Source: Chrysomallon squamiferum (lineage: Eukaryota; Animalia; Mollusca). Taken from it: DNA of 64,000 nt. The notes below the pieces were generated by a model that was given only the letters and a program-made list of their open reading frames with translations, was not told the origin of the DNA and did no database searches. The stretch is taken from the NCBI GenBank assembly GCA_012295275.1, contig CM022665.1, positions 40,238,001-40,302,000 on the forward strand, in the 5' to 3' direction. This document shows, in pieces, positions 24,201 through 36,200 of the stretch (position 1 is the first letter of the stretch; every line of letters begins with the position of its first letter). Made by a program: the position numbers and the translations under genes.

Positions 24201-27200
24201 GACTTTGGTGGTCACTGTGGCGGGGTCACTTTCCCACTCATCAGAACCGTTCACGAAATTTTACTGAGTGACAAAGGAATCGAAAGTGTTGGTGAAATCA
24301 TAGAACGTGGAAGTAGAACCGGCAGCAGTAGTGGCAGCAGCAGTGGTAGTGGCAATGGTCGTAGTAGTGGTCGTGGCAGTGGTCGTGGCAGTGGTCGTGG
24401 AAGCGTTGGAAGAAGTAGTGGACGTATTACTGGAGGCGGCAGTGGAGGGGAAAGTAGTAACAGAGTGACAGATAAAGGATCATCATCGCAATCGTCAAGA
24501 AAACCAGGTTTGTGTGTTATTTTTATATCATAGTCGTATTAAATTATAATCTCTCCGACTGTTTCTTAATCTCTTAATCTTATTTTATCTCTCTTCATCT
24601 GTTATTTTGTCTGATTTTAGTTTCTTCCTTTCTTGTCTATTTGTTTTGACTCTCCTCATCTTTGTTTTGTTATTTTGTCTCCATGTTAGTTTCTTCTTTT
24701 TTTCTTTTTTTTTTCGCTCATTTGTTTTTTCTCTCTTTCTCTCCCTCTTTCTCTTTCTTTTCTTTTCTTCTCTCTCTCCCTCAATCCATCTCTCTCTCCT
24801 TGCTTTTTCTTTCCTTTTTCTCTCTCTCTCTCTCTCTCTCTCTCTCTCTCTCTCCTCTCTCTCTCTCTCTCTCTCTCTCTCTCTCTCTCTCTCTCTCTCT
24901 CTCTCTCTCTCTCTCTCTCTCTCTCTCTCTCTCTCTCTGTATGTATATATATATATATCAGCGTCCTGTGTATTACTACTCACATCTACTCTAAAATGCA
25001 GTATAGGCTAACGCTATTTATTTTAGTCACCAAAAAATGCTACCAGTACTTTGCTGACGAAAGAACTTTGCTGGCACTGGCAGTTATATACCCAACAGAG
25101 ACTGAAATAAAAAATATAAGATATTTAGCTCTTTGCCCTATGTCATATAATATAACAGGATGACAGAGTTAGGTTTCTGGTCTAAAATTATGTACTGACA
25201 TCGAGAATGAAAATTTGTTTTCTAAAGGCTCGAGCGAAAAATCTATCTTTGGACCACCCAAATCAACCAAAGTGAAGACAAAACTGTGTCTGGTAAGTGG
25301 AAGAGTCAGAAAGCTTTCGCTTCCAGCTTGAAGTCTGTTTCAGATACTTAAACACATCTGCACACAATTGCTTTTACTAACAAACGTACTGGTTTCTGTT
25401 GTTTAGTTGCAGTGAATGAAATAAGTCGTGTGAAATAAAATAGATACTGCTGGTGTATTTAGGATATTCATGTTTCAAATGTTTGTAGATTTCTTTTCGT
25501 TTTCGTTTTCTGTGATATGGTTTGTTTTAGTTTTATGGTTCGTCTATGATCATTGTTAATTTACCATGCATAATATATATTATTTCAGTGAATGTGCTCA
25601 AATGTATATACATTTGTGTGTTTTTGTATGTGGAATTATTCTTATTAAACGTTCCATTAGCTCTGTTAATGAGATTTAACGTAATATATTTTATTCTTAA
25701 GCAAAACTAACATCACAAATCTTGCTTAATAAAAAACAACGCTTGTTATTTCAGACATTGTACAAGAATTGCTGCATTATAATTAATATAATTTACTTAG
25801 CACAGAGCATTAACAGTGTTCTCTTGTTTTATGTATTGTTTTATGTAGCCTAGTGCTGTATTATTCGTTACAAATACAAAAGTAATGTTGCATTTGACGC
25901 ATGCGTATTTCTATCGTAAATTAATGCACGGTACTAACAAAACAATCACCTGTCTGTCTGTACGTTGTTTGTGTAAAATATACTAATTATATTGCTATGA
26001 ATTACGTTTCAGCTTCAGATATGTGCTATATATTCTGAAAAATGTGTAACGACCTTCTCTTGTTTTATATATATATATATATATATATTGTATGATATGA
26101 TATCTTATATTCATAATTTAATTGTTATTGTACGTGATATGACTTCAGTTTCCATGCTTGTCTGACGTGTTCAAAATGTAACTCTCTAATTTTATTTTAT
26201 TTAATTTTTAAATTTGTTTTTTGTATACGTTTTTAATGCAGTTTACTGTGTTTATTTAATTTCAGTAGTATTATTTTTCAGTGTTTCTAGCTATTCTTTC
26301 GTTATTTTCCTCATTAATAATATGCAGCTGTTCTTTTTGTTTCTTCTAGCACGGTACTGTTTTGTATGCTTTGTTAACAAATTGCTTTCATTTCAGTTGA
26401 AGTACAATTTAGAGACTAGAACTTTATTTTCACGACAGTTATTATTATATTACATTAGAAGGTTTACGTGTATCAGAAATATTCCTGTTTATGGTTTTCT
26501 AAAGGTATTTTAGCTGTGTACGAATACAACTGTGTTTTCATTGTATATTTTCAATAGGATACTTTTAATCTTTTTTTTTCTTCTTCTTTTTTTCCCCCCG
26601 TAATTTGTTCTTCGAATAATAACTTATGAGTCAAACCAGAAACTCATATATTAATTTGTTTTGTTAAGGCAAAAGTGAAAAACCGTCATTTTCAACATCC
26701 AAAAATGTTAGCGAGAAGAAAGTAACTCCACCCAAAACTGAAACCGAGAAGAAAGTTTCTTCGTCCAACTCAGTTACTGAAAAATCTTCTCCACCAAAAC
26801 TTATCAAAGAAACCACCCAAATTTATAACTGGTAAGACGTTGTTAACTTCATCGCCGCTTTGACGTCACAAAAGCACTGAAGCAGCAACAAACTAACAGT
26901 TACTTTTTCAGATTCATGGCATTTTCTTTAATTCTGAAATGTATGTGGTAGTGTGAATATATAGCGTACAAGCTTTCAAGTGATTGGTTGACATATTTCT
27001 GCTTTAACTTTCATATAACAAACTTGCACACAGGAAAATATTTGGAAGCTTACGAACTATGTTTAGGTTGTTGGTTAGCTCTGCTGTGGCCATAACCAGA
27101 GAGCTTGTTTGCTTTACTAATATTTCCAAACATCTGCGTGTTTTCATTGTTTCACTGCTGGCATTGCGGCACATTACATACAACAGTATCGTAATTTATT

Positions 27201-33200: not shown

Positions 33201-36200
33201 TATATATATATATGCATTTAAATGTAAGTTACACAATTTGCACAATTATGCAGGCTTTGCGCATATGATTATTCTTACTTTTGTGTTTACGTTTCATCAA
33301 GGAATTTCTCTTTGATGTATTTCTGTGACGTCATATATTTATAGATATATATATATTGTGCCTTAATGTCATCATTTAAATATCTCTATATCTATTCGTG
33401 TAAGTATATTAATTTTATTCGTAATAATGCTGGTTTAAATGTAAGGAATAAAATGAAATTAGGTTAATAGAATTCTAGATCGGTACCTTATAAGTAAAAT
33501 AAAAATTATTAATACTGAGGTATTTATAAAATTATCTTTGATTATCATTTGAAATTTTGACTGACTGACTCATTCTTTCTTCTTTTTTTCTATTTTCTTT
33601 CTTTCTTGCTTTATTCATTGCTTCGTTTTACAGCGTGATTGAATATCTGCTTGGCTAAAGAACTCATCCACTCGTATATTTGATTCTTTTATTTCATCAT
33701 TACCATCATCATTGTAATGATACTATCTTTATCATCATTATTAAAATCATCTACAGCATCATCTTCATGTATATGGAGTTTCGCTTATTCATTATTTTTT
33801 TTTTTCCTTGAAGGCTCAAGTAGTAAAATAATTCAGACCCCGCCCAATACAGTTTCACAGCCGAAACACAAATCTAAGTCTGGTAAGTGGGCGGAGCCTT
33901 CGACGTCCTTCAGTGTTGTCAGCTGGCGCAGGCGTTGGCTTTTAATTATAATATTTTCTCTTTTTTTTTTCTTTCAGCCAATGAGTTGCAAGTTAACAAA
34001 AATGCTTATTGCTTAACACAAATAACAAATTGGATTGGTTGATATTATAATTGCGTTTTCCACTGCTTATCAGGGAAGCGTTTTTAGTGTTGAGTATATA
34101 TATATATATATATATATATTTTTTTTTTTTTTAAATAAGTATAGCAATTAATTGTTTGAATAAAAAATAAATATTTCTAATTTATATTAAAATTTCTTTC
34201 AGGAAAACACAGATTCATTTATCAGCACTTTCTGCTTTTGTCGTATTTTTTTATTTAAATCATAATTTATTTTATTTTGTTTTGTTCTAACAAGTGTGTC
34301 TGGTTTTCAATCTCCGCAGGCACTCACAGAGAATGTAAGATGTTCTGTCTCTGATTCCAGCTCTTACTAACTTCAAAAGCTTTTGTGTTGTAAACTGGAC
34401 GCGTTGCACATTGTTATTTTACTATAACATTTACAGTTTTATTGTTCATTAATAGTAAAATATGACTGATACATCTCTTCCGATTTTTAATATATTCAAT
34501 CTGTCTAAGCGCACATAGACACACAGACACACAATCTCTCTCTCTCTCTCTCTCTCTCTCTCTCTCTCTCTCTCTCTCTCTCTCTCTCTCTCTCTCTCTC
34601 TCTCTCTCTCTCGTCTGTTTATGAGTTAACACGCATAATTATAATTGTACTTTAAGTAATATAGATCTAGTCTGTATCTATTCTACAGTTTTAAGATTAT
34701 CAAATTGTTGAATGACCACATTTAATATGGTTTTATTGATACCTGTCATTCCTTCTAAAGTCTGTATCTTGCTGTTTATTTAAATTTTGTTAACAGCAAT
34801 GTGCTCATTCTCAGCAAATTCTTAATCTGAAAGTGATAATGTAATAACCAGGAATTTAATTTCGGCTGAAATCTATATGTAAGAAAAAAAAAAAAGAAAT
34901 TTTCAGAAAGAAACATGATGGGTCAGCTACATTCGTTTTTCAGTGAATGAATCTAAAGTGTTCTAATTTGTTATACTCGTTTTCTTTTCAAAAGCTCCAA
35001 AGCAAAAGTCTTCACCAAAACCAAAACCAATCAAAAAGCCCATAAACTCCCAAGGTAAGATTGCTTCATTGAAAATTCAACAACGTCAACGTCATCACAT
35101 TAAAAGCCATGACCATATATTGCTCACAATTTTCGTTTTATTAATTTATTATTATTATTATTATTATTATTATTTATTTTATTATTATTTTTATTTATTT
35201 ATTTATTTATTTATTTATTTATTTATTTATTATATTTTTTTTTTTTTTTTTTTTTTTTTTTATTATTATTATTATTATTACCTTTTTAAACACAGGCTGG
35301 TCTTATGAAATATATTTTAGATATATTTATATAGCTATATTTACAAAGATGCAGATATGTTTAACATAACGTTGGCTATATTGAATATGTATTCTGAAAG
35401 CTTTAAAATTTAATTCAGTGCAAACTGTTCATCTGTAATATAAGAAAGATGTGATGTTTGCACAAAAATGAGAATTTTAATTACTGGCATATTTTCTTTT
35501 AAAGCCCCCAAGTCAAGGGCCATACCCAAACCCAAACCAAAACCAATTAATTCTCAAGGTAAGACATTTACAAAAAATGTTTGCTTTTTTGATATTCTCT
35601 GGCAACAGCAACAACAACTTAAACAATATAAACAAGCAGTAATAATAATAATAATAATAATAATAATTTTAAAATAACCGGATGAATAAAAAAATAAATA
35701 AATAAAAAGAATTTGATGAATGAAATGCATATCATCAATAAATAAAATAAAATGAAAAAAAAATAATAATAATAAATAAATAAAATAAAATAAATATAAA
35801 AGCGACATTCATCCATCATTTGGTCAGATGATAATAATAATATTACTGATTTTGTTAATTTATGTTTTCAGAATAAAACATGCCATTTTTATTTATATAA
35901 ACCCTTTAACAACAATTTTTACGCATTTATTTGTTTGTGTGTTCGTTCGTCTGTTTATTTGTTTATTTGCTTGTTTGATTATTTATTTATGTTATTACTT
36001 ATTATATATTTATTTACATTGCTGCGCTTATCCAAATACTGATTCTTGTGTTTTCCATTTTCAAGCCCCTAGAGAAAAAGGAACACCTAATTTCCAGCCT
36101 AAAGAAGTCTCATCCGGTAAGCTGATAAGAATCGAGTCACAGTGCTATTAACCAAAGCCGCGCTATTTTAATTGCTTTAATTAGACGCAATTACTAAAAA

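What the first reader, a model, noticed from the sequence alone, without database searches (positions are those of the whole stretch)
25228..36116. Array of ten symmetric cassette-like exons that could tune the linker length of a chitinase
Seen: between GH18 and CBM14 lie ten exons (65, 163, 138, 399, 102, 108, 69, 60, 54, 51 nt). Eight are exact multiples of 3, and all start in phase 1 like the flanking exon 9 donor and CBM14 acceptor. All ten have an AAG acceptor and a GTAAG donor, whereas nine of the other ten coding exons use CAG/TAG. Established: AAG is a rare, weak 3' splice site, and symmetric exons can be skipped without a frameshift. Inference: any subset can be included, varying the catalytic-to-binding-domain spacer by up to ~400 aa (up to 2^10 combinations in principle), like the titin PEVK or CD44 variable-exon arrays. 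I do not know of this design in a chitinase.
Basis: partly seen in the sequence, partly recalled or inferred. Interest (0 to 1): 0.82.

Follow-up and report, generated by a model that had tools for sequence, protein, structure and literature searches.

The report
Snail chitinase with switchable linker exons
A snail chitinase gene carries ten copied, lysine-rich predicted exons between its cutting and chitin-binding domains, each with an unusual AAG entry site and most followed by motifs resembling Muscleblind binding sites, so splicing likely switches the enzyme between a short ancestral linker and one up to about 400 residues longer, though no RNA was available to show it.

Summary
The DNA observation holds: ten exon-like units, all AAG/GTAAG, sit in the ancestral phase-1 intron between GH18 and CBM14 of a gastropod chitinase close to Gigantopelta aegis. 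They are diverged tandem copies, so shared phase alone says nothing about skipping. Two further signals point to regulated splicing. The -3 A is kept in 10 of 10 copies while neighbouring positions are randomised. The array introns are enriched in GCTT and TGCT (ranks 1 and 2 of 256 four-mers; the Muscleblind motifs), peaking just after the donors, plus ACTAAC. As assembled, L1 and L2 break the frame, as does a catalytic exon; DNA contigs of run X1 restore L2 and likely that exon, so these are probably errors or alleles. A candidate 9-nt eleventh exon was found. No RNA run holds the gene, so neither exon use nor skipping is shown. Best reading: co-regulated, likely Muscleblind-activated inclusion of a strongly basic linker (pI 10.7), not 2^10 free combinations. 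The scan had not noted this locus on other DNA; it noted other duplicated-exon arrays in this genome. New variant of a known kind.

The parts
18145..24507 (+). Exons 1-9: hydrophobic N-terminus (ATG 18149), GH18 catalytic domain with DGLDMDWE in exon 4 (21163-21256), and a Gly/Ser-rich linker start in exon 9 (24141-24507, phase-1 donor)
   Evidence: 81-93% amino-acid identity to P0001 (Gigantopelta aegis) in seven GH18 alignments, 65% in the exon 5 one
22416..22419 (+). CCCC run in exon 6 where the frame shifts by one base against all four orthologues tested; likely assembly error
   Evidence: tblastn frame change; X1 contig over 22232-22459 is one base longer, gap position not displayed
25228..25292 (+). 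L1, 65 nt, one base short of symmetric; paralogous ending K-T-V-S-G lies in the shifted frame
   Evidence: not covered by X1
26669..26831 (+). L2, 163 nt here, 162 nt (symmetric) in run X1, which lacks one base at 26804
27738..27746 (+). Candidate eleventh unit: 9-nt symmetric micro-exon or relic, TTAAG|TTATTACTG|GTAAGA
   Evidence: donor score 15.5 on a matrix not trained on it; best of 20 control sites above 9 in 107 kb scores 11.8
27920..28057 (+). L3, 138 nt, symmetric
29076..29474 (+). L4, 399 nt, symmetric, with internal 33-nt (11-residue) repeats
30782..30883 (+). L5, 102 nt, symmetric
31924..32031 (+). L6, 108 nt, symmetric
33814..33882 (+). L7, 69 nt, symmetric
34995..35054 (+). L8, 60 nt, symmetric; L8-L10 form a second, Pro/Lys-rich subgroup
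35505..35558 (+). L9, 54 nt, symmetric, closest to L8
36066..36116 (+). L10, 51 nt, symmetric
25293..38637 (+). Introns after L1-L10, enriched in GpC, GCTT, TTGCTT and ACTAAC, densest in the first 100-200 nt after each donor
38638..38822 (+). Last coding exon: CBM14 chitin-binding domain with six cysteines, phase-1 TAG acceptor, stop
   Evidence: (PF01607, E 2.8e-10)

Best explanation
The ten units are diverged tandem copies of a Lys/Ser/Thr/Pro-rich predicted exon lying in the ancestral intron between the GH18 and CBM14 domains, and they likely act as co-regulated optional exons, predicted to be switched on by a Muscleblind-type splicing factor. Shown: position, paralogy, open frames, invariant AAG acceptor and GTAAG donor, and downstream motif enrichment. 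Inferred: with little activator the weak acceptors are passed over and exon 9 joins CBM14 directly, as in abalone, giving a compact enzyme; with more activator (possibly aided by Quaking at ACUAAC) several or all units are included, in a block or graded by dose, adding up to about 400 basic residues. That insert would lengthen the reach between the domains and add a polycationic, dibasic-site-rich segment that could tether the enzyme to acidic matrix or make the two domains separable by proteases.
For: Ancestral direct join: all 7 Haliotis proteins lack such a linker, 6 of 7 run exon 9 into CBM14 with about 18 residues between; Octopus about 22. Paralogy: first-48-nt identity 0.40-0.67 among L1-L7, a shared 11-residue unit. 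Frame kept: 8 of 10 symmetric, 9 of 10 with X1. Acceptor -3 A: 10 of 10, 0 changes on the tree, while -4 and most of donor +7..+15 show 4-5 changes and pairwise identity 0.25-0.27; other acceptors in the window are AAG in 1 of 15 (10 chitinase, 5 bZIP read by eye). Motifs: GCTT and TGCT rank 1 and 2 of 256 four-mers; GpC observed/expected 1.59 against 0.96 and 1.02; 10 of 10 array introns exceed 8 of 8 catalytic-region introns in GCT per kb. After removing repeats GCTT 74 vs 52.7 (0 of 300 dinucleotide shuffles), TTGCTT 21 vs 12.0 (1 of 300), ACTAAC 8 vs 2.1 (0 of 300); array introns share only a 90-nt and a 30-nt segment with each other. Density peaks at donor +7..+106; mean 5.1 Muscleblind four-mers per 200 nt against 1.26 in 396 control windows, 0 of 100000 draws. 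GCUU/UGCU as Muscleblind motifs and downstream position as activating: passages of PMC5041496 and PMC13044900.
Against: No junction was seen in any RNA. Much of the motif signal is plain GpC excess: TGCT is not above dinucleotide shuffles (67 vs 64.8, 116 of 300), TGCATG neither (32 of 300), the reverse complement AAGC is also somewhat raised (38 vs 30.2, 19 of 300), and A follows GC nearly as often as T (0.40 vs 0.43), so the factor's identity is inferred. L6 has 0 and L9 2 such four-mers in the first 200 nt, and L4's lie in a 49-nt tandem repeat. Exon 3 shows that an AAG acceptor can be constitutive here. Enhancers could serve to include weak exons always. Controls come from one 64-kb window. 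The parsimony argument for selection on -3 A is modest on its own (about P 0.04 by my estimate, 5 changes expected times two thirds viable).
Confidence: 0.52

Rival explanations
1. All intact units are always included; the gene simply evolved a long basic linker by exon duplication, and the intronic motifs are enhancers that compensate for an inherited weak acceptor.
For: Linker length in this orthologue group varies from about 18 to about 300 residues across gastropods, with internal repeats in Elysia, so lengthening is recurrent. Symmetric, disordered, tandem-duplicated exons are common without needing to be alternative (abstract of PMC3632108). Exon 3 uses AAG constitutively.
Against: If constant inclusion were the aim, A-to-C or A-to-T changes at -3 should have fixed in some copies; none did while flanks saturated. 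The G. aegis model P0001 has neither such a linker nor CBM14 after exon 9, which gives no support to a single abundant long form there.
Confidence: 0.24
2. Each unit is included independently, giving hundreds of linker isoforms.
For: Eight units are freely combinable in frame; motif load differs between units, 0 to 9 four-mers in 200 nt, which allows different inclusion levels.
Against: One shared cis code predicts correlated inclusion; nothing here shows independence; no RNA.
Confidence: 0.1
3. The units are mostly skipped, decaying or poison exons, or this allele is a pseudogene.
For: As assembled exon 6, L1 and L2 break the frame; L1 or L2 inclusion gives early stops. No protein relative of L4 was found.
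Against: X1 contigs restore L2 and add one base across exon 6; L3-L10 hold 981 nt without a stop; splice signals are invariant; catalytic motif intact.
Confidence: 0.09
4. The units are mutually exclusive: one is chosen per transcript.
For: Tandem paralogous exons of one phase often are (recalled; search listing PMC9741552).
Against: Lengths differ eight-fold; introns are 450-2521 nt, too long for steric exclusion; the 25 longest of 1362 inverted repeats are all GA/TC microsatellites.
Confidence: 0.05

Closest known systems
Molluscan GH18+CBM14 'acidic mammalian chitinase-like / chitinase-3-like' orthologues (P0001 Gigantopelta aegis, P0024 Haliotis rufescens, P0004 Octopus vulgaris); chitotriosidase-type architecture
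   Same: GH18 with intact catalytic motif, linker, one C-terminal CBM14; same phase-1 break before CBM14.
   Different: Their linkers are short or Ser/His/Asp-rich; none of those fetched has a Lys-rich linker; the four H. rufescens isoforms differ at the N-terminus or drop CBM14, not in linker exons.
Lutzomyia longipalpis LlChit1 splice forms (PMC5722264; abstract and first part of text read)
   Same: Stage-specific alternative splicing changes the C-terminal architecture of a GH18 chitinase.
   Different: There stop codons interrupt the chitin-binding domain; here the domain would be kept and the linker changed by an exon array.
Variable symmetric-exon arrays such as titin PEVK and CD44 (recalled, no call); general class in PMC3632108 (abstract)
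   Same: Same-phase, tandem-duplicated exons coding low-complexity sequence between fixed domains.
   Different: Those are shown in RNA and are structural or surface proteins; this is a secreted hydrolase, lineage-specific, with invariant AAG acceptors, and its splicing is only predicted.
Muscleblind-activated cassette exons (PMC5041496, PMC13044900; passages read)
   Same: GCUU/UGCU clusters just downstream of the donor; motif use conserved from Trichoplax to human per those passages.
   Different: No binding or knock-down data here; 'mollus' has 0 hits in PMC13044900.

Membership tests
GH18 chitinase with CBM14 | GH18 domain | tested here: met
   PF00704 on 3 of 4 GH18-region exons scanned; 81-93% identity to P0001 over seven alignments
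GH18 chitinase with CBM14 | Catalytic DxxDxDxE motif (motif recalled) | tested here: met
   [12 protein letters not shown] in exon 4
GH18 chitinase with CBM14 | Six-cysteine CBM14 | tested here: met
   PF01607 40.6 bits against cut-off 22.1
GH18 chitinase with CBM14 | Uninterrupted reading frame | tested here: inconclusive
   One-base shift in exon 6 as assembled; X1 contig is one base longer over that stretch, position not displayed
GH18 chitinase with CBM14 | Chitin hydrolysis | not testable with these tools
   needs an assay
Variable cassette-exon array (titin PEVK / CD44 type) | Same-phase symmetric exons between fixed domains | tested here: met
   8 of 10 as assembled, 9 of 10 with X1
Variable cassette-exon array (titin PEVK / CD44 type) | Tandem-duplicated, low-complexity coding units | tested here: met
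   disorder inferred from composition, not predicted by a tool
Variable cassette-exon array (titin PEVK / CD44 type) | Several splice forms seen in RNA | not testable with these tools
   0 of 3 RNA runs offered hold the gene
Muscleblind-activated exons | GCUU/YGCY enrichment in the proximal downstream intron | tested here: met
   absent after L6, weak after L8 and L9
Muscleblind-activated exons | Binding and response to Muscleblind level | not testable with these tools
   needs CLIP, knock-down or minigene
Muscleblind-activated exons | A Muscleblind gene in this organism | not testable with these tools
   no whole genome is held
Mutually exclusive tandem exons | Near-equal length and an exclusion device (short intron or docking site) | tested here: not met
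   51-399 nt; introns 450-2521 nt; only microsatellites among the 25 longest inverted repeats, shorter docking sites not excluded

The most novel reading that the evidence does not exclude
A young array of copied exons has captured the Muscleblind/Quaking splicing code and works as a dose-dependent rheostat: selection keeps every acceptor weak (AAG) so that activator level sets how many units enter, turning one secreted chitinase from a compact soluble enzyme into one carrying up to 400 residues of polycationic tether for acidic shell, radula or mucus matrix, with a 9-nt micro-exon as the finest step.
Probability: 0.27. Interest if true: 0.72.

Novelty: new variant of a known kind. Interest (0 to 1): 0.5.

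Why it matters
If true, it is a case of splicing tuning the linker of a carbohydrate-degrading enzyme rather than deleting its binding domain, and a clean natural experiment on how newly duplicated exons acquire tissue regulation: ten copies, saturated flanks, one invariant non-consensus acceptor base and independently placed enhancer motifs. It offers a directly testable Muscleblind target in a mollusc, and a reason to treat invariant AAG acceptors as a marker of regulated exons. If the exons are constitutive it is only another lineage-specific linker expansion.

Tried and rejected
No RNA holder listed: 3 RNA runs (X2-X4) hold next to none of the words and gave only short low-complexity matches; this is no evidence on expression. 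L1 and about 1.3 kb around it are barely covered by X1; no conclusion. L3-L10 were not compared with X1, so their conservation between individuals is open. No whole genome, so no genome-wide AAG rate. No protein relative of L4 among 386 candidates or in the Atlas; low complexity makes both weak. CBM14 searches (11 of 150 hits read) found no Lys-rich linker joined to CBM14. Alternative splice sites that would restore L1 or L2 gave only poor non-consensus donors. The subset count returned 0 only because of the exon 6 shift and was not used. RBFOX TGCATG was not significant. Looping-out by pairing of (GA)56 at 27241-27353 with (TC)n tracts at 24820, 34535 and 36410 is possible but 13 such tracts lie in the window, so it was not taken as evidence. 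Print searches for a chitinase linker exon array and for peltospirid chitinases found none; the library is incomplete. No printed AAG acceptor frequency was found: its rarity in animals is recalled. In PMC11871041 two chitinase rows without sequences appear in a supplement cut when stored, one file was unreadable; they could not be linked to this gene.
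Full report
Observation. I read 15001-44000 and rebuilt the gene. All 10 have AAG| and |GTAAG; the other ten coding acceptors are 6 CAG, 3 TAG, 1 AAG, and 4 of the 9 other donors are GTAAG. Eight of ten lengths are multiples of 3 (P 0.0034) and L3-L10 are open in the phase-1 frame (joint shuffle probability about 1e-8). Exon status rests on DNA only.

What the gene is. The best protein match is P0001, an acidic-mammalian-chitinase-like protein of Gigantopelta aegis, 81-93% identical over seven GH18 alignments and 65% over exon 5; the window is from a close relative, not that sequence. 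The catalytic motif is intact. Six of seven Haliotis proteins join the exon 9 equivalent directly to CBM14 at the same point, with about 18 residues between the domains; Octopus has about 22, pulmonates 84-94, two neogastropods about 190-200, Elysia about 300. So the phase-1 intron is ancestral, linker growth is recurrent in this orthologue group, and the array is lineage-specific: no Lys-rich relative was found (weak negatives).

Broken frames. As assembled L1 (65) and L2 (163) give early stops alone or together, and exon 6 is one base short at a CCCC run. Run X1 (kind not on record; contigs run through introns; 0.41 of sampled words, so another individual or close kin) has a 301-nt contig over 26620-26921 whose only gap removes base 26804, making L2 162 nt, and a contig over 22232-22459 one base longer than the window, position not displayed. 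L1 is not covered; one more base near its AAAA run would give the paralogous ending, which is inference. These are therefore more likely errors or alleles than poison exons. L3-L10 were not compared with X1.

Origin. The units are paralogues: direct-repeat families span L1/L2/L6 starts and L1/L3/L4/L7 ends, first-48-nt identity is 0.40-0.67 among L1-L7, L8-L10 form a second group, and an 11-residue unit recurs in L2-L6. Shared phase therefore follows from duplication and does not show skipping; PMC3632108 (abstract) describes symmetric, disordered, tandem-duplicated exons as a general class. L3-L10 code 327 residues, pI 10.7, 87 K+R, 19 D+E, 80 S+T, 30 P, no Cys; all ten would add about 400. 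A donor matrix built from the ten finds one more site, 27747, scoring 15.5 where the best of 20 control sites in 107 kb scores 11.8; an AAG lies 9 nt upstream, a candidate micro-exon or relic.

Is AAG merely inherited? Flanks are saturated: mean pairwise identity is 0.27 at -4, 0.27 at donor +7..+26, 0.25 further on, with 4-5 parsimony changes per such column, while -3 shows none. Changes to C or T would give ordinary acceptors, so retention in 10 of 10 suggests selection to keep the base; on parsimony counts alone the support is modest (about P 0.04, my estimate). In the window 1 of 15 other acceptors is AAG (five bZIP acceptors read by eye). That AAG is rare and weak in animals is recalled; two look-ups found no passage.

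Splicing-regulatory signature (new). I first counted named motifs, then ranked all words. In 11.2 kb of array introns GCTT and TGCT rank 1 and 2 of 256 four-mers, TTGCTT first of 4096 six-mers, GpC observed/expected is 1.59 against 0.96 (catalytic-region introns) and 1.02 (rest of window), and 10 of 10 array introns exceed 8 of 8 others in GCT density. The introns share only 90 and 30 nt with each other; after masking these and tandem repeats GCTT (74 vs 52.7, 0 of 300), TTGCTT (21 vs 12.0, 1 of 300) and ACTAAC (8 vs 2.1, 0 of 300) exceed dinucleotide shuffles. Density is highest at donor +7..+106 and falls to 0-2 GC per 100 nt in the kilobase before CBM14. In 200 nt after the donors the four Muscleblind four-mers used in PMC5041496 average 5.1 against 1.26 in 396 control windows (0 of 100000 draws) and 0-3 after exons 1-9. 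Passages of PMC5041496 and PMC13044900 give GCUU/UGCU as Muscleblind motifs and downstream binding as activating; PMC9786888 gives ACUAAY for Quaking, with downstream inclusion in its text but the reverse in a figure legend. Against: TGCT and TGCATG do not exceed dinucleotide shuffles, AAGC is slightly raised too, A follows GC almost as often as T, L6 has no such four-mer, and controls come from one window. The enrichment is real; naming the factor is inference.

RNA. Nothing here shows inclusion or skipping.

Mechanism. Most likely (0.52) the units are co-regulated optional exons: weak acceptor, consensus donor, downstream activator sites; default is the ancestral short join, and activator-rich cells include several or all units. 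One shared code argues for block or graded inclusion, not 1024 free forms. The insert is strongly basic and rich in dibasic sites, so it would change charge, tethering and cleavability as well as reach; these functions are untested. Rivals: constitutive long linker (0.24), independent combinations (0.10), dead or poison exons (0.09), mutually exclusive choice (0.05). Unchecked notes of this scan on other genes of the same genome (e1-10605422, e1-10604825, e1-10582034) describe further duplicated-exon arrays, one with serial joining in RNA; I used them only as a lead that such arrays are common here and that block inclusion is plausible. No note covers this locus elsewhere.

Comparison and verdict. 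Splicing of chitinases is known: LlChit1 forms lose the chitin-binding domain (PMC5722264, abstract and first part read), as does a Haliotis isoform. Variable exon arrays are known in titin and CD44 (recalled). A linker exon array in a chitinase was not found, in an incomplete library; unread supplements of PMC11871041 could bear on expression. New variant of a known kind; interest 0.5, limited by the lack of RNA and raised by the regulatory signature, which makes the claim directly testable.

Noticed in passing
window:22416-22419: One-base frameshift in catalytic exon 6, probably a homopolymer error; suggests this assembly carries coding indels.
   Followed up: partly
window:27738-27746: Candidate 9-nt micro-exon or relic with the same AAG and ACTG|GTAAGA signals as the array; an in-frame TAA just upstream rules out a longer version.
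   Followed up: partly
window:24820-24938, 27241-27353, 34535-34612, 36410-36490: One (GA)n tract complementary to three (TC)n tracts around the array; pairing would loop out L1-L2, L3-L7 or L3-L10. Such tracts are common in the window.
   Followed up: partly
window:24300-24470: X1 shows a 9-nt insertion at 24321 and 18 gap letters in all with no net length change in the Gly/Ser part of exon 9: frame-keeping variation of the fixed linker.
   Followed up: no
window:49317-52166 and 57994-60010, minus strand: Exons of one or two bZIP transcription-factor genes (PF07716/PF00170 on 51236-51346); the 58-60 kb exons look like a paralogue by eye only.
   Followed up: partly
window:45435-48193: Three diverged copies of a 600-1250 nt unit, each with a minus-strand CTGCAG|GTAAGTA donor-like site (about 46105, 46726, 47974); could be duplicated non-coding exons or a tandem repeat.
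   Followed up: no
window:29478-29677, 36710-37044, 38956-39507: Tandem repeats of 49, 98-99 and 52 nt; the first, right after L4, carries two TGCT per unit.
   Followed up: partly
P0001, P0023, P0105, P0018, P0135: The G. aegis model ends without CBM14; H. rufescens isoform X4 also drops it; land-snail and Elysia orthologues show their own repeat expansions in the linker or N-terminal extension.
   Followed up: no
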